Virus record (IMG/VR): IMGVR_UViG_2974626280_000001
Span: 1-64,000 of that record
Length of the DNA stretch: 64,000 bases
DNA from: a virus
Lineage: Duplodnaviria; Caudoviricetes
Strand: one strand, 5' to 3'
A program made the translations under genes and the position numbers. Each line of letters starts with the position of its first letter. The stretch's first letter is position 1. A model generated the notes under the pieces. The model saw only the letters and a program-made list of their open reading frames with translations. It searched no databases and was not told the origin of the DNA. Shown one piece after another: positions 1-17,965 of the stretch.

Positions 1-180
1 ACTTAAAAAAAATACAGTGAATTTATTTTTAGACTACCTTCTACATAATCGAAATTTGTAGTTATTTAGGTTACTACGGTTATTTAAATACAGAACAGGT
101 ACTTAGAGAATATCCGAAAAATAACCAGCGGCTAAATTCCGGTTATTATCCTTTGCGGCAATCACCTCTAGGTTATTTTC
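1..180. repeat. AT-rich non-coding element with GGTTAT/ATAACC boxes; diverged copy of 17785-17935
   Basis: GGTTA(T/C) or ATAACC boxes at 69, 78, 121, 141 and 171. ACTTAGAGAATATCCGAAAAATAAC (101-125) matches ACTTACAGAATATCCGAAAAAATAAC (17906-17931). Confidence 0.75.
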
Positions 181-286
181 GAAGTACACTAGCGATGCGC
201 ATCCAGTACACGCTTCACCTCGTTCACCACCCATCTACCCGCTCTGAGCAGTGTCCACCAGCTTGCATTTATACACCACAACGGTG

Positions 287-316
287 TTGACGCATCCACC
301 AGCAGCGGCGTATAAT
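287..316 (+). promoter_or_regulatory. Sigma70-like promoter upstream of putative terS
   Basis: TTGACG-N18-TATAAT. Confidence 0.75.
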
Positions 317-356
317 TACACCAGGCATCTTTAACCATTCACACAGGCGATTTCTC

Positions 357-839
357 ATGAGTGCATCAGGAATTCTTTTACCAGAAGATTTTGAAGACTA
401 TAACTTTGCGCTCAATAACAAAGAGCACTTTGACAAATACATTGATATGATCATTAAGGGCTACGACGAGACAACCGCACTACGTGTAGTCTTCGGCGAA
501 GAGGCTTGTTCAGACGGAGGCTTCTGGGCGCGCATTTATGCTATTCGCCGGAATCGGTACTACAATCAGCAGTACCAACTTGCACTACAGAATATCAAAC
601 TGGAAGAGCTTTGGAATCCTCGCTTAGCCATTACGATGCTGCTCTTAATCGCACGCTCCAGTGAGAAACATTCTGCGCGTATTAACGCAATCAAAGAATT
701 GAATATCATGACAGGTATTACAGTGATGGACGAGGCTGGTAACACAAAACAGGGCCGGAGCATGGAAGATTTCTACGCGAAAATCCAGGAATCAGCCGAT
801 TCGCACTACCCACCAGCAAACGGCACTACCAAGCACTAA
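357..839 (+). CDS. terS: Putative terminase small subunit
   Basis: 160 aa. The helical SARINAIKELNIMTG segment resembles TerS oligomerisation motifs, and no other TerS candidate is present in the window. Motif recognition only. Confidence 0.55.
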   Translation: MSASGILLPEDFEDYNFALNNKEHFDKYIDMIIKGYDETTALRVVFGEEACSDGGFWARIYAIRRNRYYNQQYQLALQNIKLEELWNPRLAITMLLLIARSSEKHSARINAIKELNIMTGITVMDEAGNTKQGRSMEDFYAKIQESADSHYPPANGTTKH

Positions 840-856
840 AATTACACAAGCTTTCA

Positions 857-896
857 GGGGTAGGCGCGGCGAATCCATACTAAGCTGCCCTACCCC
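857..896. terminator. Hairpin between convergent genes
   Basis: GGGGTAGG...CCTACCCC inverted repeat just after the terS stop. Confidence 0.45.
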
Positions 897-937
897 ACCA
901 GTTTCGCACTACAACCCACGAGAATGCCACCTATTGG

Positions 938-1225
938 TTATAGTACATAACGACGAATCCACACTATACCTTTCGCACTAAGGTTAAACTCTTCCACACT
1001 AGCGTCATGCCCATTATCGAAGACAACCTGACCAGTGTCCCTGCGTAACCGCCAGCAGAAGTCCATAGTGACCAGATTCGCACTATTAAGCGCAGAGCCT
1101 TTCAGCCAGCCATAGTCGCAACCCGTACTATCCGCATAAAGCTCTAACCGTCCACCAGCGTTATCGGGTTGCACTAGGACTGGCTCATTAGCCACCAGCG
1201 CGGCCACCAGCAATAGACTCTTCAT
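938..1225 (-). CDS. Hypothetical exported protein
   Basis: 95 aa, hydrophobic N-terminus MKSLLLVAALVA, one Cys pair. Confidence 0.65.
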   Translation of the reverse strand: MKSLLLVAALVANEPVLVQPDNAGGRLELYADSTGCDYGWLKGSALNSANLVTMDFCWRLRRDTGQVVFDNGHDASVEEFNLSAKGIVWIRRYVL

Positions 1226-1431
1226 CCGACAATCCGCACTATACCGCCTCGACGGGCAATCCGGTCAAAGAACGAATCGCGGAAGCTGAAGTCATCTTGC
1301 ACTACGACGACAGAGCGCTTAATCTGCTCCGCTACAACGTCCAGCTTTTGCACTACAGGCTTATTCAGGTTCAGGCCACCAGCGGCCTCAACCATCATGC
1401 GCTCATAATCTGCACTATTAAGCTCTTTCAT
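1222..1431 (-). CDS. Hypothetical protein
   Basis: 69 aa; 4-bp ATGA overlap with the downstream gene. Confidence 0.65.
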   Translation of the reverse strand: MKELNSADYERMMVEAAGGLNLNKPVVQKLDVVAEQIKRSVVVVQDDFSFRDSFFDRIARRGGIVRIVG

Positions 1432-1480
1432 AATGTTCTCCAGATGTGAGAAAAGGCCGGATAACCCGGCCCGATTTGCA

Positions 1481-2017
1481 CTACACGATTTCGAAGCGGT
1501 ACGCGACGCCTACCCAATCGAACACCGCCACTTTCGCTTCCTTAAGCTTCATGCGGAACCGGATGTGCTTGCTGTCCGGCAGGTTAAGCGCGGTAAACGC
1601 AGCTCTAACCGATTTAAACTCTTCTTCCTTATCGCCCCATTTAACGATAACGCCGTTGCGGGTCATGCGGGCTTCAAACACCTTCTCATTGCCCCAGCTC
1701 GCCTTAATCCCTTCGGAGTTCGATTTCCGCTCGCTGGTCTTCTCTTCCACCAGCTCGCTTTTAACCTTCGCTTCAAATTCTTCGTCGGTCATCGCGTCGT
1801 AATCCGGCGCTGGCTCTTCGGCCTTAACCGGGCGCGGAGAGTGGACTACTACCGGGCGGACATTATCATCTTCCCAGGCCAGCGCGTTAACCAGCGCCGT
1901 TACGCGTTTTTCGGCGGTAGCGCGGTCAGCGAACTTCTTAACCGGTTTTTCGCTATGGAGGTTGTAAAACTCCACCAGCTCCTTCGTAGAAGCGGTTGCG
2001 ACGTCGATGGTGTTCAT
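1481..2017 (-). CDS. Early hypothetical protein (178 aa)
   Basis: ATG at 2017 follows GAGG and a consensus promoter, so the ORF-track start at 2050 is probably too long. Confidence 0.8.
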   Translation of the reverse strand: MNTIDVATASTKELVEFYNLHSEKPVKKFADRATAEKRVTALVNALAWEDDNVRPVVVHSPRPVKAEEPAPDYDAMTDEEFEAKVKSELVEEKTSERKSNSEGIKASWGNEKVFEARMTRNGVIVKWGDKEEEFKSVRAAFTALNLPDSKHIRFRMKLKEAKVAVFDWVGVAYRFEIV

Positions 2018-2048
2018 AGCTAAATCCTCATTTCGTTTCGATAAATAC

Positions 2049-2077
2049 ATTATAGGTGAACCGTGTATTAAAGTAAA
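2049..2077 (-). promoter_or_regulatory. Early promoter PE1
   Basis: GCTTTACT-N17-TATAATGT. Confidence 0.85.
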
Positions 2078-2151
2078 GCACTTTCTTAAAATATTTTCGA
2101 AAAGATGGAAAGTATTTTAAGAAGCCCGGTTATCGTTACCGGGCGGAACGG

Positions 2152-2352
2152 TTAGCCGAAGAGGATAGCCTCTAAGACTTCGGCGGCGTCTTCCTTCGAT
2201 GCATGTTTAGAATCGAGGTGCCATACATATTCGCCGTAATGGCGGGTATAGATATAGACCTTTCCTTCGTCTTCGGTTTTACGAACCATCTTACCCTGTA
2301 GGCTGGAGATAGGACGCTGGTACACTTCGTTAAGGTTAAGTTTTCGAGCCAT
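2152..2352 (-). CDS. Early hypothetical protein
   Basis: 66 aa with its own promoter, GAGG RBS and a downstream hairpin (2124-2144). Confidence 0.75.
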   Translation of the reverse strand: MARKLNLNEVYQRPISSLQGKMVRKTEDEGKVYIYTRHYGEYVWHLDSKHASKEDAAEVLEAILFG

Positions 2353-2385
2353 CTTTCTATACCTCGTTTTCGTTTCGATAAGTAC

Positions 2386-2413
2386 ATTATAGATGAGCGA
2401 CGAAAAAAGTAAA
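2386..2413 (-). promoter_or_regulatory. Early promoter PE2
   Basis: GCTTTACT-N16-TATAATGT. Confidence 0.8.
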
Positions 2414-2467
2414 GCATTTTTTCGACATTTTTATTTAAATTATTTTCGAAAAAATGAGAGATTTTTC

Positions 2468-2496
2468 TTTACTTCCATCTTAGCCTATCTTATAAT
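2468..2496 (+). promoter_or_regulatory. Early promoter PE3
   Basis: TTTACT-N17-TATAATGT. Confidence 0.85.
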
Positions 2497-2550
2497 GTAT
2501 CTCATAGGGCGACGGAATAGACCGAAGCCGAAACGAACGAGGATTTAAAG

Positions 2551-2835
2551 ATGGCTAAACTAACCGCTACCGAACTCGCTAACGCGTCCGCTTTCTTCGC
2601 TGGCGAGTACGTTCCTTACGCTTCCCTACTCGCCGCTAACGTGGGCGTTAAAATCGGCGAAGAAATCCCCGCCGAAGTAGTAGGAGATTTCGGTTTCGAC
2701 GACGAAGAAGGTGCGTATCTCGATACCGTCGACGGGCGCGAAATCCGGGTTATCGAAACCGAACTTTACGTAGCCGCCGAAGACGTAGCGACCGGAGAAG
2801 TTGCCTTCTTCGCCCTCGAAGAAATCGAAGAATAA
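2551..2835 (+). CDS. Very acidic early protein (candidate DNA mimic or anti-defence protein)
   Basis: 94 aa, 22 D/E versus 4 K/R; GAGG RBS and own promoter. Confidence 0.8.
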   Translation: MAKLTATELANASAFFAGEYVPYASLLAANVGVKIGEEIPAEVVGDFGFDDEEGAYLDTVDGREIRVIETELYVAAEDVATGEVAFFALEEIEE

Positions 2836-2873
2836 AAAGATGTAAATATTTCGGATAAAGTGAGAAATAAAGC

Positions 2874-2902
2874 TTTACTAGTCGGACACTTTATCCTATA
2901 AT
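2874..2902 (+). promoter_or_regulatory. Early promoter PE4
   Basis: GCTTTACT-N17-TATAATGT. Confidence 0.85.
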
Positions 2903-2960
2903 GTTTATATCGGAAGGGGAAATGAACCTCTTCTACCTAACCTAAAACGAGGACTTAAAA

Positions 2961-3227
2961 ATGACTAACATGACTAAAGAAATTATCGCTATCCTGATGG
3001 CTTCTAAAACTAACGAAGGTGTTGCGTTCTCCGAAATTACCGGCCATGTCCGCCTCGTCGTCGATAACACCGAAACGTCCGAAGTTGCGAGCCTCATCGT
3101 TACCGGCTTCGTTCCTAACCTCGACGACGATATGGACGACGAATTAGCTCCGGTATGGTTACATAAATATTCTTTCGGATGGATGCTCGGACTCGATAAC
3201 GGCGACCAGTACGCTATCCTTAACTAA
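2961..3227 (+). CDS. Acidic early hypothetical protein
   Basis: 88 aa with DDDMDDE tract; GAGG RBS. Confidence 0.8.
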   Translation: MTNMTKEIIAILMASKTNEGVAFSEITGHVRLVVDNTETSEVASLIVTGFVPNLDDDMDDELAPVWLHKYSFGWMLGLDNGDQYAILN

Positions 3228-3246
3228 AAATACACAGCCTTACATT

Positions 3247-3270
3247 AGCCTCGCTTATAGCGGGGCTTTC
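3247..3270 (+). terminator. Intrinsic terminator
   Basis: AGCCTCGC-TTATA-GCGGGGCT followed by TT. Confidence 0.6.
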
Positions 3271-3386
3271 GTCGTTCTATCCCCTTCCTCCGCTATACCC
3301 TCTCTTAGAAAGTGTTCCCTTGGTTAATGTTGTTATGTCGAATAATAACGCTCGTTAATTATATCTTCGCCGCGCTGTCGCGTCCG

Positions 3387-3592
3387 GTATAGTTAGGACG
3401 GAGATAGTTTGAGGGTTAATGGTATGGGAGCTAATTGTTACGGTCGGTGATGGTTAGCTGACGAATGATTATGCTGCGTATTGTATGTTGCGTAATTGTT
3501 AGGGCGCGAATGATTACGGTGCGTGATGGTTTGCTGACTAATCATTAGCCTTCTAATTACAAGCGAAATAATGGTTAGTGCGCTAATCATTG
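3387..3592. repeat. Non-coding tandem array, 14 units of 15-16 bp
   Basis: 9-bp cores (consensus TAATNRTTA) start at 3387, 3402, 3417, 3432, 3448, 3463, 3478, 3493, 3508, 3524, 3539, 3554, 3569 and 3584, separated by 6-7 bp mostly GC-rich linkers. Confidence 0.9.
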
Positions 3593-3683
3593 AGTGTGCC
3601 CTTGACCGCGATTTAGTACCTGGTCCAATTTCACAGTACACTAATCAGAATTCCATCACGTAGGCGCGGCCAAGAACAATCAA

Positions 3684-3890
3684 TCAAATACCCAGGAGCT
3701 GGCACACAGAATCAACGACGAAGCTGATGCCAATGAGGAACAAGAAGAAGGCGACGACGAGCGCAACAATCAGGAACAGGACATATATAACCCAGAACAG
3801 GAAATAGAGCACCGGGATAGCGATAATACAGGTGACGATAAGTATCACCACTAACCAAGCAATCTGCCGCAATGTTAAAGAACGTTTCAT
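3684..3890 (-). CDS. Small membrane protein
   Basis: 68 aa, almost entirely hydrophobic (2 TM). Confidence 0.7.
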   Translation of the reverse strand: MKRSLTLRQIAWLVVILIVTCIIAIPVLYFLFWVIYVLFLIVALVVAFFLFLIGISFVVDSVCQLLGI

Positions 3891-5700: not shown

Positions 5701-7515
5701 TTATCGATAGAGCGGTATGTATGCAACCTTACCATTTCTGTCCAGAATTTGCATGTATTCCGCTGGCGCTGCCGTACTGGATGGCGTACCCGGAGGAGAG
5801 GATAGCTGGAGTACCCCGCCTGCGGCCCCTACGCCAGCGCCGTTGGCGTGCTTGGCAAAGCGATACTCTGGCAGCCTGATAGGGTTTTCGCCAGCCGCTG
5901 CCACAGGCTCGTTGGCAGATTTGGTGCCGTCTTTCAGGAACATGGACGGCGTTCCGGCGTCCTGACGGTTTACGCCGTTGCTGTACACGTTGACGTCGAA
6001 CCGTCCACACCACTGCGGCAGCTTGATCCACAATTTGACGTAGGTGTTGTAAGGTGCCTGATAGCGGATGTCGGTGACTCCTGCCATGCCTTCGTGACTG
6101 GCCGTGACGATAGGTTCATTGCCAGAGCCGCGCTGGATTTTGATCGTTGTCTTGCCCGGTTCGCCGTTGCGCTCGATAGTTGGACTTGCGCCAGCGGAGC
6201 TATAGCCGTTTTTGGCGTGGATATCGACTTCCCATTGCTGGCCTACGGACGGTGAGAAGAATTGACCGATGCAGACCCAGGTGGACGCGCTGGTGTTGTT
6301 ATCACCGTGCAGCGTGCCGCCCTGAAACAGTACGCGGATAGGCTGTTCAAAGCTGGTGGCCTGAGCCGATTCGGTGATGTAACCGTCTTCGTAGTTGCTG
6401 AGCCAGCGCTGCTCTGGCGTACCACGAACGACCGCGCCGCCCGTTTGCAGCTCAATGTTGTGCTTGCCGCGCGTACCCTTCAAGTTGAGAGGGAACTTGC
6501 TGGACTCGATGGACAGTTTGTGGATATCCCAGCCGCCGTTGCTCAGGTCGCCAGGTCCGTTGGAGTGCTCAATCCAGAGGTTACGAATCAGCGACTGCGT
6601 GCAGCGCGGCATGTTCAGACCGTTATCCGACAGCATGTACTGCAGGTTGCCGTTGGTGATTTCGACCGCCGTTGAGTGGTCCCACTTGCCTTGCGGGTCA
6701 TTAGACCAGAGGATGCGAATGAAATCGTCGTAAATACGGTTGCAATAAATCTGGTCGAAGTGAGTGTCCAGAGTATCGAGTAAATCGAAAACGATGCCGC
6801 CGGAGTTGATTGCGCGGAAGCAGCTCACGTTGACGAACTGACCAGCCGTTTCGACGTTGGCGAAGAAAGGTTGCTTGTTACTTGGCGTGGTGAAATTCCA
6901 GCGCATACCGCCATCGGTGATGGTGGAAGTCGCCTGACCATCCCACTCGATGCCCTGAATGGCGAAGCGACGCGCGGAGCACTTGATCACTGGGGTATCT
7001 GACTTATCCGACACAATTCGCGTCTCCGGCATCAGGCCGAAGTCGACGCGCGGCCCGGTGAACTGAAGGTAGTCGATTTCGGCGGTGCCGTAGTCGTAAG
7101 GCGACACGAAACTGACGCCTGAAGGGAACTTAACGCCGATACGACGCGCCATGCGGTGGTTGCCGTCGATGTTCCGACCGTAGTTGAACATGCGTAAAAC
7201 GGCTGGCAGGTCGTCGTTGATGCCGTCCATGTACGCGCCGAAGTGGGTGATGTTGATTTCGTCGCTGAAGCTGGAGCAAATGCGCTCCCAGTGGAACTTG
7301 TCGCCAGCAGCGTGCATACCGCCGTCGTCCGCGCCGCTGGTCAGGTGGCCCAGGAAGTAACCGCCGCCAGCCGGGTTGCCTGCCAACAGGTGATAGCTGG
7401 AGAGGTAAAGGATTTGCCCTTCAAACTCTGGCTTTCGGGTGCGGAGAGATTCGAAAGATGAAGCAGTGATTGCCTTTTGCAAATCGGACGTTTCAAGAAT
7501 CGTTTTGAGTTCCAT
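5701..7515 (-). CDS. Tailspike-fold polysaccharide (EPS/capsule) depolymerase
   Basis: ~604 aa from the ATG with GAGGG RBS. Tailspike N-domain motif LRTRKPEFEGQILYL...GGGYF, DGINDDLPA beta-helix start, and WDHSTAVEITNGNLQ/PRCTQSLIRNLWIEH segments recalled from Erwinia-phage/AmsF-WceF-type enzymes. Confidence 0.7.
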   Translation of the reverse strand: MELKTILETSDLQKAITASSFESLRTRKPEFEGQILYLSSYHLLAGNPAGGGYFLGHLTSGADDGGMHAAGDKFHWERICSSFSDEINITHFGAYMDGINDDLPAVLRMFNYGRNIDGNHRMARRIGVKFPSGVSFVSPYDYGTAEIDYLQFTGPRVDFGLMPETRIVSDKSDTPVIKCSARRFAIQGIEWDGQATSTITDGGMRWNFTTPSNKQPFFANVETAGQFVNVSCFRAINSGGIVFDLLDTLDTHFDQIYCNRIYDDFIRILWSNDPQGKWDHSTAVEITNGNLQYMLSDNGLNMPRCTQSLIRNLWIEHSNGPGDLSNGGWDIHKLSIESSKFPLNLKGTRGKHNIELQTGGAVVRGTPEQRWLSNYEDGYITESAQATSFEQPIRVLFQGGTLHGDNNTSASTWVCIGQFFSPSVGQQWEVDIHAKNGYSSAGASPTIERNGEPGKTTIKIQRGSGNEPIVTASHEGMAGVTDIRYQAPYNTYVKLWIKLPQWCGRFDVNVYSNGVNRQDAGTPSMFLKDGTKSANEPVAAAGENPIRLPEYRFAKHANGAGVGAAGGVLQLSSPPGTPSSTAAPAEYMQILDRNGKVAYIPLYR

Positions 7516-7600
7516 AACTACCCTCTGAAGTGACAAGGCCGGACTATTCCGGCCATAGTATTTTACTAAACTTTACGTTCAAAATCAACAATTTCTGCGG

Positions 7601-9951: not shown

Positions 9952-9987
9952 AAAAAAATGGTGGAGCAGTCGCTAAACTGTCCACCA
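9952..9987 (-). terminator. Leader terminator immediately upstream of the 9940 RBS
   Basis: Minus strand reads TGGTGGACAGT-TTAGCG-ACTGCTCCACCA-TTTTTTT-GAGAGG. Confidence 0.65.
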
Positions 9988-10033
9988 AACCGCTGGCTGC
10001 CGATAACTGGTTGTGTTTTGAATCTTATCAATA

Positions 10034-10070
10034 ATTTTACTTGAAAAGAGTGATTTAATCAATATATAAT
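10034..10070. promoter_or_regulatory. Overlapping divergent sigma70-like promoters
   Basis: Minus strand: TTGATT-N17-TAAAAT (10062-10034). Plus strand: TTGAAA-N18-TATAAT (10041-10070). Confidence 0.65.
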
Positions 10071-10100
10071 GTGGTAAAATTTCGTAAACGGACCTCATTA

Positions 10101-11501
10101 ATGTATCAACTGAATCCTGCGCTAAGAGATGTTTGGAACACTAAAGCACGCTACAAGGTTGTGTATGGTGGCCGTGCATCTTCCAAGTCGCATGATGCAG
10201 CAGGTTTCGCCGTATTCCTTGCAGCCAACTTCCGGCTGAAGTTCCTTTGCGTACGTCAATTCCAGAATAAAATTTCGGAATCGGTTTACACGCTCCTCAA
10301 AGACAAGATTGAAAACTCTGAGTTCAAGGACGAGTTCAACTTGTTAAAGAACAGTATTGAGCACAAAGTTACCAAATCTGAATTCCTTTTCTACGGTATC
10401 GCACGCAACGTTGACGAAATCAAGTCAACGGAAGGTGTCGACGTTCTCTGGCTCGAAGAAGCGCACGCACTTACTGAAGAGCAGTGGGACATCATTGAAC
10501 CAACAATCCGTAAAGAAGGCAGTGAGATTTGGATAATCTTTAACCCGGATGAAGAAGCTGATTTTGTGTATCAGAATTTCATCGTGCGCCCTAAAAAGAA
10601 TTCTATCGTCAGAAAGATTAATTGGCAAGAGAATCCTTTCTTATCGCAAACGATGATTGACGTTATCAAGGACATGTACGACCGCGACCCGAAAAAGGCA
10701 GAGCACGTGTATGGCGGAGAGCCGAAGACTGGCGGCGACAAGTCTGTTATCAACCGCGCATTCGTCAAGGCCGCGCTCAACTTGCACAAGCACCCAACCA
10801 AAGGTTGGGAAGCAACCGGAATGCGCCGAATCGGCTATGACGTAGCGGACGACGGCGGAGACGTCAACGCAATGGCGAAAGGCGTTGGGAACGTGCTGCA
10901 AGTCATCGAGACTTGGGAAGGGCTTGAGGATGAGATGCTCAAGTCAGCCGCGCGTGTCTACAAGTCAGCAAAAGAGCTGAATGCTACAGTGACATATGAC
11001 TCCGTCGGTATCGGCGCGGCCATCGGCTCGAAGTTTTCTGAGTTCAACGAAGACAACCCAGGCGGGTGGCAGATTGAATACGACGCATTCAACGCTGGTG
11101 GGCGCGTTCACAATCCTGATGACGTTTACCTTGAGCTGCCGCACGTTAAGATTCTTAACAAAGACCACTTTTCTAACGTTAAGGCTCAAAAGTGGGTAGA
11201 GGTTGCAGAGCGCATGCGCGCATCTTTCGAATACCTCAACGACCCTAACGCCAACCCGGATAACACCGACGTGTCTGAGCTTTGCTCAATCGATACTGAA
11301 GGATGGACTGAAGAAGAGATTGAGCAATTTCTCTTTGAGATTTCTGCGCCGAGAAAAGATATCGACCGAACCGGGAAATTCAAGGTGGAATCCAAGCCTG
11401 ATATGTTAAAGCGCGGCATCAAATCCCCAAACAAGGCTGATGCCGCTATCATGTTTTGGATGAAGCCTATGCGCGCAGCAGCAGGATTCTTCGACTTTTA
11501 A
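10101..11501 (+). CDS. terL: Terminase large subunit (PBSX-like)
   Basis: Walker A GGRASSKSH, Walker B LEEAH, nuclease motifs GYDVADDGGD and NKADA. Start taken as MYQLNP. Confidence 0.92.
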   Translation: MYQLNPALRDVWNTKARYKVVYGGRASSKSHDAAGFAVFLAANFRLKFLCVRQFQNKISESVYTLLKDKIENSEFKDEFNLLKNSIEHKVTKSEFLFYGIARNVDEIKSTEGVDVLWLEEAHALTEEQWDIIEPTIRKEGSEIWIIFNPDEEADFVYQNFIVRPKKNSIVRKINWQENPFLSQTMIDVIKDMYDRDPKKAEHVYGGEPKTGGDKSVINRAFVKAALNLHKHPTKGWEATGMRRIGYDVADDGGDVNAMAKGVGNVLQVIETWEGLEDEMLKSAARVYKSAKELNATVTYDSVGIGAAIGSKFSEFNEDNPGGWQIEYDAFNAGGRVHNPDDVYLELPHVKILNKDHFSNVKAQKWVEVAERMRASFEYLNDPNANPDNTDVSELCSIDTEGWTEEEIEQFLFEISAPRKDIDRTGKFKVESKPDMLKRGIKSPNKADAAIMFWMKPMRAAAGFFDF

Positions 11502-12247
11502 TCGTCGGAAATCTTGCGCTGGATTTCAACGTCTTTCGCGCGCCTTTTGCCTTCAGTAAACGCAATTATGCTTTCCGGGTCTTCTGCTGAGAATTTTGGC
11601 TGCTTCGCTTTTGAGTAATTAGCTTCACCAAAATACTCTGCGACCGCCGCGCCTTTCACGACAACCAATGACGTTCCAGTAGAAGTCGTAAGCTTCTGGC
11701 GCTCTACGCGCAAATCGTTGAGCCTTTTACACAGCGTCTCACACGCTCCCAGCTTAAACTTGGAGCCTAACCCTACCGGATAGCGACCCTCGTGCCCTAT
11801 CTCAACGAGCCATTCAGCGCACAGCTTGTTTACCAGGACGAGCAAGCTTTCATACATTTCAACTGCCATGTCAACGTCGTGCTTGAATCCGCGAAAAACG
11901 ATGCGATTACCCCAAACTTTCTTGTAAGCCTTGAAGTGCTTTTCCGCGCCTTCAAGAACCGCTTGGCAGTCATTAAATTCGGCTACCGCGACGGACAAAA
12001 TGTTCATGTGATGCGGTATGTTGGCGAATGTGCGCGTCGCAGGCTGCTTGGAGAATTCACGGTCTTCTCCGTTAACGTTGAGGATGTCAACCTTTGTCAG
12101 TTGATACTCATCCATCAGCTTACGCGCTTTCGCCATCGCGTTGGCGGCTTCGTGCTCATTGGCACTGCCTTCAGCCAGACGGAACAACTTTTCAATTTTC
12201 AACTTGATGCGGTCAACGCCGCTGGATTTAGCGTATTCATTGCTCAT
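11498..12247 (-). CDS. DUF2786-family protein
   Basis: KIEKLFRLAEGSANEHEAANAMAKARKLMDEY N-terminal motif. Confidence 0.75.
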   Translation of the reverse strand: MSNEYAKSSGVDRIKLKIEKLFRLAEGSANEHEAANAMAKARKLMDEYQLTKVDILNVNGEDREFSKQPATRTFANIPHHMNILSVAVAEFNDCQAVLEGAEKHFKAYKKVWGNRIVFRGFKHDVDMAVEMYESLLVLVNKLCAEWLVEIGHEGRYPVGLGSKFKLGACETLCKRLNDLRVERQKLTTSTGTSLVVVKGAAVAEYFGEANYSKAKQPKFSAEDPESIIAFTEGKRRAKDVEIQRKISDD

Positions 12248-17670: not shown

Positions 17671-17965
17671 ACACAGGTTATTTTTTGGTTATTCGAATAA
17701 TCCTTTCAAATCATAGGAATAACCGGAATAACCAAAATAACCAAGTTTTTCCGAAACTCTTAAGGTAAGCCGAAAAAAATAATAAATTGACTACAAAAAA
17801 ATAGAGTTATTTTATTATTTTTTTAGACTATCCCCGTATATCTCAAATTTTATGGTTACGGAAGTTATTTGGATATTTTACACTAATAGTTGCGGCAACT
17901 CAGCCACTTACAGAATATCCGAAAAAATAACTTAGGATATTTTTTCTAGTACACAGGTTATTCTC
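17671..17965. repeat. AT-rich non-coding locus with iteron-like boxes
   Basis: GGTTATT at 17676 and 17687; AATAACC x3 at 17718, 17727 and 17736 (9-bp period); ACACAGGTTATT direct repeat at 17671 and 17951. Confidence 0.8.

What the first reader, a model, noticed from the sequence alone, without database searches (positions are those of the whole stretch)
3387..3592. Hidden 14-unit, 15-bp-period non-coding array (quasi-palindromic AT core plus GC linker)
Seen units: GTATAGTTA-GGACGG, AGATAGTTT-GAGGGT, TAATGGTAT-GGGAGC, TAATTGTTA-CGGTCGG, TGATGGTTA-GCTGAC, GAATGATTA-TGCTGC, GTATTGTAT-GTTGCG, TAATTGTTA-GGGCGC, GAATGATTA-CGGTGCG, TGATGGTTT-GCTGAC, TAATCATTA-GCCTTC, TAATTACAA-GCGAAA, TAATGGTTA-GTGCGC, TAATCATTG. 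Spacing is strictly 15-16 bp despite sequence drift, and there is a 76-bp higher-order duplication (3438-3462 vs 3514-3538). The array lies between convergent transcription units. A 15-bp period is about 1.5 helical turns, which puts successive cores on alternating faces. Inference: a cooperative protein-polymerisation site. Candidates are origin iterons, a centromere-like or tethering site, an injection-stop signal, or a decoy for a host regulator (the cores resemble Fur-box half-sites).
Basis: partly seen in the sequence, partly recalled or inferred. Interest (0 to 1): 0.85.

Follow-up and report, generated by a model that had tools for sequence, protein, structure and literature searches.

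The report
Repeat array at phage genome end
The 15-base periodic array is real, but its key property is that it fills the last ~280 bases of a 3.6-kb terminal repeat and stops a few bases before the virus chromosome's right end. It is therefore most likely a docking platform for the DNA-packaging machinery, an expected kind of element that has not been described for this phage family.

Summary
Each unit has a conserved xAATnRTTa core and an uninformative GC-rich 6-bp linker, and five units form a 76-bp super-repeat.

The genome (73,168 bp) has an exact 3,603-bp direct terminal repeat (DTR), and the array occupies its last ~280 bp, ending 4-5 bp before the DTR end.

Arrays with the same period and core, in the same position downstream of the small-terminase gene, occur in Pantoea phage PA1, Wifcevirus coliphages and several metagenomic relatives. 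In the two DTR-bearing Wifcevirus records checked the array abuts the DTR end. Only the cores and the cut-site junction are conserved. A viable Wifcevirus isolate lacks exactly three units.

The same DTR encodes a homologue of the decameric E217 small terminase (PDB 7UXE), whose DNA target is unknown.

Best reading (about 0.5): a cis-acting genome-end element on which an oligomerising protein, probably TerS, assembles to set the right-end cut. Rivals are a T5-like injection-stop or tether, and end protection or recombination. An origin, a Fur decoy, a coding repeat and an RNA gene are not supported.

This scan already found the homologous Wifcevirus element on other DNA. The new results here are the Kylevirus-type array, the further lineages and the cross-lineage motif profile.

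The parts
1..3603 (.). Left copy of the direct terminal repeat (DTR). It is identical to genome positions 69566-73168.
   Evidence: The longest prefix equal to a suffix is 3,603 bp and exact. The record is flagged as having direct terminal repeats.
357..839 (+). Small terminase (TerS) gene, an E217-type decameric TerS homologue.
   Evidence: phmmer against PDB 7UXE 'Small terminase' (10 chains) gives E 1.9e-32 over residues 4-146. It matches phrog_4783. TerL lies at 10071-11501.
255..1979 (-). Cluster of nine Chi sites (CCACCAGC on the + strand), oriented to stop RecBCD entering from the left genome end.
   Evidence: Nine sites lie within 1.7 kb, against about 1 expected per strand for the whole genome. 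PA1, L060 and L062 each have 7-9 such sites.
3248..3277 (+). Terminator-like hairpin with a T-rich tail after the last DTR gene (2961-3227).
   Evidence: Read directly from the sequence: a 7-bp stem, a 5-nt loop and then TTTCGTCGTT. The homologous position is annotated as a terminator in WFH and WFC. The consensus scan did not pick it up.
3325..3386 (.).
   Evidence: Register-constrained segmentation and position-weight-matrix (PWM) hits at 3340 and 3356.
3387..3598 (.). Each has a 9-bp core xAATnRTTa and a 6-7-bp GC-rich linker. There are two 16-bp units (3432, 3508), which lie 76 bp apart.
3569..3603 (.). Terminus-proximal units and the cut-site flank. The right end of the virion DNA lies between 3603 and 3604.
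   Evidence: The DTR end is at 3603. It aligns in the same column as the WFH DTR end (3701) and close to the MyoSmar end. The PhageTerm DTR of Mansfield (3,673 bp) maps to the same WFH position.
3604..3650 (+). Conserved block just outside the DTR: GCGATTT, then TTAGTA (3613-3618), an 18-nt spacer, then TACACT (3637-3642) and AATCA. Its role is unknown. It could be a weak sigma-70-like promoter or part of the cleavage signal.
   Evidence: Conserved in six lineages (alignments A1 and A4). The only PA1-Wifcevirus similarity that blastn detects here is a 69-bp segment lying across the predicted junction. It matches the promoter consensus at only 7 of 12 positions and the promoter scan did not call it.
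3684..3890 (-). First gene of the unique region (68 aa), convergent with the DTR genes.
   Evidence: ORF list. There is no family match apart from a weak chance-level Pfam hit.

Best explanation
The array is a cis-acting genome-end element. On replicated concatemers, many copies of a sequence-specific, oligomerising DNA-binding protein load side by side on the xAATnRTTa cores, one per 15.2 bp. The most likely binder is the small terminase, an E217-type decameric ring encoded 2.5 kb away in the same terminal repeat. This nucleoprotein platform positions the large terminase nuclease on the conserved junction immediately to its right, so the chromosome is cut at 3603/3604 and the packaged DNA ends with the array. 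Because the platform stays on the DNA that carries it, the right end would be packaged first. The left end would then be packaged last and injected first. Shown: the array, its exact position at the DTR end, conservation of its period, core and position in several lineages, and the identity of the TerS gene. Inferred: that a protein binds the array, that the protein is TerS, the direction of packaging, and that the array helps to set the cut.
For: (1) The array ends 4-5 bp before the end of an exact 3,603-bp DTR. (2) Arrays with the same 15-bp period and AATnRTT core lie at the same place. In WFH the array ends 11-24 bp before the 3,701-bp DTR end, and the closely related WFC and SP13 also carry it. 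In PA1 and in the metagenomic relatives L060 and L062 it precedes the conserved junction. L056 and L074 have 15-bp arrays 2-2.3 kb downstream of their TerS homologues. (3) Only the core columns carry information (0.8-1.0 bit against 0.1-0.2 bit in the linker), and the per-column profile correlates at r 0.80-0.90 between lineages that have no blastn-detectable similarity across the array. This indicates selection on a binding motif. (4) Within Wifcevirus, the junction and the terminus-proximal units are nearly invariant. The junction is recognisable in six lineages, including a Serratia Myosmarvirus. (5) The DTR ends of our phage and WFH fall in the same alignment column, the MyoSmar end lies close by, and the independently determined PhageTerm end of Mansfield maps to the WFH position. 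(6) The DTR encodes TerS, homologous to 7UXE at E 1.9e-32. That protein is a ring of ten HTH-bearing subunits with no known DNA target (PMC9611059). (7) From general knowledge, arrays of TerS-binding repeats flank the cut sites of lambda (cosB R sites), P1 (pac hexamers) and SPP1 (pacL/pacR). T7 has a 13-bp-period CCTAAAG array abutting its terminal repeat. (8) Nine Chi sites are oriented against RecBCD entering from the left end, and the genome has only two Chi sites on the + strand, neither within 60 kb of the right end. This fits left-end-first entry and hence right-end-first packaging.
Against: No binding data exist, and E217 TerS showed no appreciable DNA binding in vitro (review PMC9611059). 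Serratia Myosmarvirus phages cut at the homologous junction but have no significant 15-bp periodicity, only two or three unit-like copies, so a long array is not needed to make the end. HansTraber_Bas100 is viable with three units fewer, so unit number is not critical. A 15.2-bp spacing is about 1.45 helical turns, which does not fit a simple wrap of DNA around a ring in which every subunit faces the same side of the helix. A second conserved DTR signal, 9-14 co-oriented GCACTA boxes over and beside terS in five lineages, is an alternative TerS target. The DTR coordinates come from the records and from PhageTerm annotations, not from reads examined here.
Confidence: 0.5

Rival explanations
1. 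T5-like entry control. The copy at the inner edge of the left DTR pauses or tethers the incoming DNA after the first 3.6 kb by binding a host or virion protein. The DTR genes are then expressed before the rest of the genome enters.
For: In T5 the injection stop signal is a cis-acting site in a large untranslated, repeat-dense region at the right end of the left terminal repeat, and nine DRD direct repeats lie in the same repeat region (bioRxiv 10.1101/866236; T5 record annotation). Here too the DTR ends in an untranslated repeat region. The Chi orientation indicates that the left end enters first.
Against: The array abuts the DTR end to within a few bases in both lineages with defined ends, ours and Wifcevirus, which an entry pause would not require. 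The proposed T5 features are absent: there are no DnaA boxes within 8 kb, and the inverted-repeat search of the region found only short, imperfect pairs. The DTR carries terS, a late function, and no homologues of the T5 A1/A2 genes were recognised. No two-step transfer was mentioned for this family in the papers read.
Confidence: 0.15
2. Right-end protection or recombination element. The G+T-rich strand ends 3' at the right terminus. With its Chi-like linkers and a bound protein, it would shield the last-entering end from exonuclease or favour strand invasion into another DTR copy, so promoting concatemer formation.
For: The top strand is G+T rich (GC skew +0.31 to +0.39, G+T 0.62-0.63), as it is at the DTR right ends of Myosmarvirus phages, T5 and T7. 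The 16-bp units carry nnnTGGTG-type linkers, and L062 has a true Chi on the + strand inside its array. The right end has no properly oriented Chi elsewhere.
Against: Strand composition alone does not explain a fixed 15-bp register, or a near-palindromic AT core that is conserved while the G-rich linkers drift. The L056 array has the opposite skew. Apart from L062, no array contains a true Chi.
Confidence: 0.12
3. Replication-origin iterons or a centromere-like partition site.
For: It is a tandem array of short binding-site-like units in non-coding DNA, with an AT-rich stretch at its left edge (3325-3371).
Against: There are no DnaA boxes nearby and no adjacent initiator or partition gene. The 15.2-bp spacing is out of helical phase, unlike typical iterons. 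The array is duplicated at both genome ends. This is a lytic phage, and its Pbunavirus relatives lack the array.
Confidence: 0.05
4. Neutral minisatellite produced by slippage, with no function.
For: Unit number varies (7-10 in Wifcevirus, 18-21 in Kylevirus-type lineages), and whole-unit indels occur.
Against: The period, the core and the position persist across lineages whose TerS proteins are only 38-60% identical, while the linkers are randomised. Four lineages share a 76/77-bp periodicity, and 16-bp units spaced 76-77 bp apart recur in each.
Confidence: 0.04
5. Decoy for a host regulator (Fur), a translated repeat ORF, or a structured RNA.
For: One unit (TAATCATTA) matches the centre of the Fur box. 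A 67-aa GTG ORF (3438-3641, - strand) overlaps the array. The + strand folds better than shuffles (z -3.8).
Against: The Fur match is at most 12 of 19 and is not exceptional in this genome. Stops occur in every frame in our array and in PA1, and the ORF crosses the DTR end. There is no Rfam match. The folding signal is expected from near-palindromic cores, and the array lies downstream of a terminator-like hairpin.
Confidence: 0.03

Closest known systems
Homologous array at the right end of the 3.7-kb terminal repeat of Wifcevirus coliphages (WFH, WFC, Mansfield, ECML-117, BASEL Bas98-101)
   Same: Same place (the last part of the DTR, between the same convergent genes), same 15-bp period and same AATnRTT core. 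The terminus-proximal units appear orthologous by inspection, and the junction motif is conserved. The terminal repeat itself is published (PMC6563267, PMC6753283).
   Different: There are 7-10 units instead of 18. The super-period is 45 bp rather than 76 bp, and the distal linkers are C/T-rich. The array is not mentioned in the papers I could read. Earlier sessions of this scan had already noted it.
T7/T3 short-repeat arrays (SRL and SRR; names recalled from Dunn and Studier 1983) flanking the 160-bp terminal repetition
   Same: A one-directional array of a short motif plus spacer (CCTAAAG, about 13-bp period, at least 12 copies) starts about 15 bp from the terminal-repeat boundary of a DTR phage (T7 bases 173-340). 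Its function is still unresolved.
   Different: The T7 arrays lie outside the repeat, on both flanks. The motif and period differ, the repeat is 160 bp rather than 3.6 kb, and the phage family is unrelated.
Terminase recognition sites built from repeated TerS-binding units: lambda cosB (R1-R3), P1 pac hexamers, SPP1 pacL/pacR (from general knowledge)
   Different: Those sites have 3-7 units, not 18-21, and no strict 15-bp register. They belong to cos or headful packaging systems. Binding is demonstrated there and not here.
Phage T5 Repeat Region 3, which contains the injection stop signal, at the inner end of the left terminal repeat
   Same: A large untranslated, repeat-dense region occupies the right end of a long terminal repeat, and the top strand is G-rich near the repeat end.
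   Different: The T5 region is about 1.2 kb long, built from large inverted repeats, palindromes and DnaA boxes, and it overruns the repeat end. Here there is a single regular 15-bp array with no DnaA boxes.

Membership tests
Terminase recognition / terminus-generation site (pac- or cosB-type) | Lies directly beside the terminase cleavage site | tested here: met
   The last unit ends 4-5 bp before the DTR end at 3603. The same arrangement is seen in WFH. The ends are taken from the records and from PhageTerm annotations.
Terminase recognition / terminus-generation site (pac- or cosB-type) | Repeated sequence-specific units conserved among relatives | tested here: met
   Core information is 0.8-1.0 bit against 0.1-0.2 bit in the linker. 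Profiles correlate at r 0.80-0.90 across three lineages, and L060 and L062 give the same profile.
Terminase recognition / terminus-generation site (pac- or cosB-type) | Bound by the small terminase and required in cis for cutting or packaging | not testable with these tools
   This needs EMSA, footprinting, cryo-EM or genetics. Myosmarvirus phages (no long array) and the three-unit deletion in HansTraber show that the full array is not indispensable.
T7-type SRL/SRR arrays | Short-period direct repeats abutting the terminal-repeat boundary | tested here: met
   for this phage; for T7.
T7-type SRL/SRR arrays | Arrays outside the repeat on both flanks, with the CCTAAAG motif | tested here: not met
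   The array lies inside the DTR, at the right edge only. The left edge has a different, non-periodic motif cluster. The motif is unrelated.
T5 injection stop signal region | Untranslated repeat region at the inner end of a long left terminal repeat | tested here: met
T5 injection stop signal region | Paired DnaA boxes within large inverted repeats | tested here: not met
   The nearest TTWTNCACA match is at 11725. The inverted-repeat search of 3250-3700 found only four short, imperfect pairs of 12-19 nt.
T5 injection stop signal region | Two-step DNA transfer | not testable with these tools
   This requires infection experiments.
Replication-origin iterons | Helically phased iterons with a DnaA box or AT-rich unwinding element and an adjacent initiator gene | tested here: not met
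   The period is 15.2 bp (about 1.45 turns), there are no DnaA boxes, and no initiator gene is adjacent.
Fur box | At least about 15 of 19 matches to the 19-bp consensus, or a 7-1-7 motif | tested here: not met
   The best match is 12 of 19 (10 of 15 for the 7-1-7 motif), and 79 genome positions score as well or better.
E217-type small terminase (the protein at 357-839) | Full-length sequence homology to the solved decamer 7UXE | tested here: met
   E 1.9e-32 over residues 4-146 without gaps. The oligomeric state of this protein itself was not tested.

The most novel reading that the evidence does not exclude
The array is the natural multi-site DNA substrate of a ring-shaped small terminase. 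One or two TerS decamers, or a TerS filament, would read 10-20 AATnRTT cores set 15.2 bp apart on alternating faces of the helix. The conserved five-unit (76-bp) super-repeat would reflect the geometry of that complex. That would give the first defined high-avidity DNA target for a structurally solved TerS family that shows no DNA binding in vitro. It would also offer a concrete answer to the open question of how ring TerS proteins achieve sequence specificity.
Probability: 0.3. Interest if true: 0.75.

Novelty: new variant of a known kind. Interest (0 to 1): 0.5.

Why it matters
How ring-shaped small terminases recognise viral DNA is unresolved. The review PMC9611059 states that neither the wrapping model nor the threading model explains specificity. 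The E217-type decamer, which is solved as 7UXE, has no known DNA target. This clade offers a natural, conserved, highly repetitive candidate site next to a mapped cut. Unit number varies naturally (7, 10, 18-21), and culturable phages are available (the BASEL Wifcevirus isolates and the Pantoea phages). Binding, footprinting and cryo-EM experiments can therefore be designed directly. The array also marks the DTR end precisely, which helps to annotate true genome ends of related phages in assemblies that collapse the repeat. Together with the oriented Chi cluster, it gives a testable polarity for packaging and injection.

Tried and rejected
- blastn of the array region against 50,697 phage records found no match. 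The relatives had to be reached through proteins instead.
- The search for related loci with the single TerS protein found nothing. It worked only with an alignment.
- An IMG/VR search with the post-terminus motif returned only Wifcevirus contigs plus chance hits.
- A 9-bp PWM scan of the genome found no second cluster of cores.
- GGTTATT and ATATCCGAA boxes flank the left DTR edge, but they also cluster in the 17.6-18.0-kb non-coding region. They are therefore not end-specific.
- The TerS alignment was inspected for N-terminal residues that track array presence. No clear pattern emerged.
- Pbunavirus was checked as a possible carrier. It has no large gap and no 15-bp array, and it is described as circularly permuted (PMC12345254).
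- Myosmarvirus showed no significant periodicity.
- The Rfam, ORF, Fur and DnaA-box tests were negative.
- The primary E217 terminase paper (PMC10026623) is not held. A literature search for the T7 repeats gave nothing useful.
It was redone from references.
- I considered matching 15 bp per subunit to the circumference of a decamer. I dropped this as numerology because no coordinates were available.

Full report
**Observation.** They are 15 bp long, except for two 16-bp units that start at 3432 and 3508. Within the region, base identity is 0.45 at lag 15 and 0.62 at lag 76, with further peaks at lags 30/31, 45/46, 61 and 91, against a background near 0.27. Across the 64-kb window, lag 76 at this site is the strongest periodicity found for any lag between 2 and 119 (z 9.2), and lag 15 has its window-wide maximum here (z 5.9). 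Against shuffles of the region itself the z-scores are 8.5 and 5.6. A register-constrained segmentation shows that the array starts earlier. Three AT-rich units (3325, 3340, 3356) and one broken GC-rich unit (3372) precede the 14 reported units, which gives 18 in all.

The window begins at base 1 of a 73,168-bp virus record whose first 3,603 bases are repeated exactly at its end. The array therefore fills the last ~280 bp of a direct terminal repeat (DTR). The last unit ends 4-5 bp before the repeat end, so the right end of the record is the array. By portal similarity (65-67% amino-acid identity) the phage is a myovirus of the Lindbergviridae, close to Pantoea phage PA1 (genus Kylevirus) and to the Wifcevirus coliphages. 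Terminal repeats of about 3.7 kb are published for WFC and WFH (PMC6563267) and for Mansfield (3,673 bp by PhageTerm; PMC6753283). The WFH record carries an exact 3,701-bp DTR, and the Mansfield end maps to the same nucleotide of WFH. Serratia phages MTx and MyoSmar have PhageTerm DTRs of 3,566 and 3,559 bp.

**Conservation.**
- WFH has about ten 15-bp units (cores GAATCATTA, TAATTGTAA and similar) in the last 160 bp of its DTR.
- PA1 has 19 units, with autocorrelation peaks at lags 15, 30, 45, 61 and 76.
- Searches with a TerS alignment found further lineages. L060 has a TerS 58% identical to ours and about 18-21 units. L062 (48%) has about 20 units. L056 and L074 (both 38%) have 15/30-bp arrays 2-2.3 kb downstream of their TerS homologues.
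- In ours, PA1, WFH, L060 and L062 the information per column is the same. Columns 2-4 (AAT) and 6-8 (RTT) are conserved, column 5 is free, and the six linker columns are GC-rich but uninformative: 0.8-1.0 bit in the core against 0.1-0.2 bit in the linker. Profile correlations among ours, PA1 and WFH are 0.80-0.90.
- The segmentation used a motif derived from this phage, which is a caveat. However, the periodicity in the relatives was found by autocorrelation and by TRF without any motif.
- The arrays have no blastn-detectable similarity to each other. The only PA1-Wifcevirus match in the region is a 69-bp segment lying across the predicted junction. The cores thus persist while the linkers have drifted.
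- Ours, PA1, L060 and L062 all show a 76/77-bp periodicity. In each, 16-bp units of the type GAATGATTA-CGnTnGG-TGATGGTTA recur 76-77 bp apart.
- Within Wifcevirus, the terminus-proximal ~110 bp and the ~55 bp beyond the end are almost invariant, the distal units vary, and HansTraber_Bas100 lacks exactly 45 bp, which is three units.
- The junction is recognisable in six lineages, including MTx (alignments A1 and A4). Myosmarvirus has only two or three unit-like copies and no significant periodicity.
- Pbunavirus, which is described as circularly permuted (PMC12345254), has no such gap or array.

**What else is in the repeat.**
- The ORF at 357-839 is a small terminase. It matches PDB 7UXE, the decameric TerS of Pseudomonas phage E217, at E 1.9e-32 over its whole length. 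TerL is 9.2 kb away.
- The review PMC9611059 records three things about E217 TerS: its gene is far from terL, it is a decamer with N-terminal HTH motifs, and it showed no appreciable DNA binding in vitro.
- Following a note from the first-stage reader, I verified nine Chi sites on the minus strand at 255-1972, against about one expected per strand in the whole genome. By the established polarity of Chi recognition, they act on RecBCD entering from the left end.
- PA1, L060 and L062 each have 7-9 such sites, and WFH has one.
- I also verified 14 co-oriented GCACTA boxes at 477-1478. GCACTA is the most enriched hexamer in the DTRs of ours, PA1 and WFH, and it is clustered in L060 and L062 as well.

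**Tests of other readings.**
- The array is not coding. Every frame has stops in ours and in PA1, and the 67-aa GTG ORF crosses the DTR end.
- No Rfam family matches.
- The + strand folds better than shuffles (z -3.8), and the - strand does not. Near-palindromic cores on a G/U-rich strand would produce this. The array also follows a terminator-like hairpin at a position annotated as a terminator in WFH and WFC.
- The Fur resemblance is weak: 12 of 19, matched or beaten at 79 other sites.
- No DnaA box lies within 8 kb.
- No second cluster of cores exists in the genome.

**Mechanism.** The most economical reading is a genome-end element: a platform of 10-20 binding sites on which a protein oligomerises beside the site where terminase makes the right end. 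TerS is the leading candidate for three reasons. It is the known reader of packaging signals. In this family it is a ten-subunit ring with external HTH motifs and no known target. And arrays of TerS sites flank the cuts of lambda, P1 and SPP1 (general knowledge). If the platform stays on the DNA it marks, the right end is packaged first and the left end is injected first. That agrees with the orientation of the Chi cluster and with the T7 paradigm.

Several facts weigh against this. No binding has been shown. Myosmarvirus cuts at the homologous junction without a long array. A three-unit loss is tolerated. The 15.2-bp spacing places successive sites on nearly opposite faces of the helix, which a simple wrap around one ring does not explain. 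The GCACTA boxes are a competing candidate for TerS.

I put the genome-end reading at about 0.5, of which TerS as the binder accounts for about 0.35. The main rivals are a T5-like entry pause or tether (0.15) and an end-protection or recombination role for the G+T-rich 3'-ending strand (0.12).

**Comparison and novelty.** The closest thing is the homologous Wifcevirus array. Earlier sessions of this scan had already found that element and read it in much the same way. I reached my reading before seeing those notes, and they are not independent evidence. Outside the family, the nearest analogues are the T7 CCTAAAG arrays next to the 160-bp terminal repeat, the repeated TerS sites of cos and pac systems, and Repeat Region 3 of the T5 terminal repeat. 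None of the papers I could search on Wifcevirus, PA1/Kyle or E217 TerS mentions the array. I file it as a new variant of a known kind. It is ordinary in category (a DNA signal at a phage genome end). It is unusual in its regularity, its length and its out-of-phase period, and in the fact that a solved but 'targetless' TerS is encoded beside it.

Noticed in passing
window 255-1979: Nine Chi sites lie on the minus strand (CCACCAGC as read on the + strand) within 1.7 kb of the DTR, against about 1 expected per strand genome-wide. They are oriented to act on RecBCD entering the left end. The cluster is conserved in PA1 (7), L060 (7) and L062 (8-9), but WFH has only one.
   Followed up: partly
window 477-1483: Fourteen co-oriented GCACTA boxes lie over terS and the next genes. 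GCACTA is the most enriched hexamer in the DTRs of ours, PA1 (13) and WFH (11), and it is also clustered in L060 (9) and L062 (10). It is absent from Myosmarvirus, Pbunavirus and L056. This is a second conserved DTR signal of unknown role and a rival target for TerS.
   Followed up: partly
window 60-200, genome 69440-69520, and window 17676-17960: GGTTATT/AATAACC boxes (7 copies) and ATATCCGAA boxes flank the left DTR edge. The same pair of motifs clusters again in the ~800-bp non-coding gap at 17.3-18.1 kb. PA1 has an analogous AACCGTT/ATAACCG set at its predicted left edge (L005 5480-5760).
   Followed up: partly
window 3604-3650: A conserved block lies just outside the DTR: TTAGTA, an 18-nt spacer, TACACT, then AATCA. 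It points into the convergent minus-strand genes and is conserved in six lineages. WFH carries a second copy about 100 bp further on. It could be a promoter for an antisense RNA or part of the cleavage signal.
   Followed up: partly
window 3364-3375 and 3664-3675: A 12-nt inverted repeat (92% complementary) brackets most of the array, the terminus and the post-terminus block. It may be chance.
   Followed up: no
L056 8222-8402 and 8400-8700: In the metagenomic relative, the 15-bp array is preceded by a 22-copy 8-bp array (AAATCTTC) and a ~300-bp GT/CA-rich tract, and it is followed by GGTAGTA-type G-rich repeats that resemble the Myosmarvirus DTR end.
   Followed up: no
L062 5151-5158: A true Chi (GCTGGTGG) on the + strand lies inside a 16-bp unit of the array, correctly oriented for RecBCD entering the right end. 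The corresponding 7-bp linkers in the other lineages are Chi-like (nnnTGGTG).
   Followed up: no
T5 L059 (record 9970-10219), T7 L017 61-160, MTx L006 3380-3580, MyoSmar L007 8900-9100: The top strand is G+T rich (G+T 0.58-0.69) over the last 100-250 bp of the terminal repeat in unrelated DTR phages as well as here. This may be a general property of the 3'-ending strand at right ends.
   Followed up: partly
window 5701-7536: A 611-aa minus-strand protein matches the EPS-depolymerase tail family phrog_4250 (E 1.6e-149), which is consistent with a Pantoea or Erwinia host.
   Followed up: no
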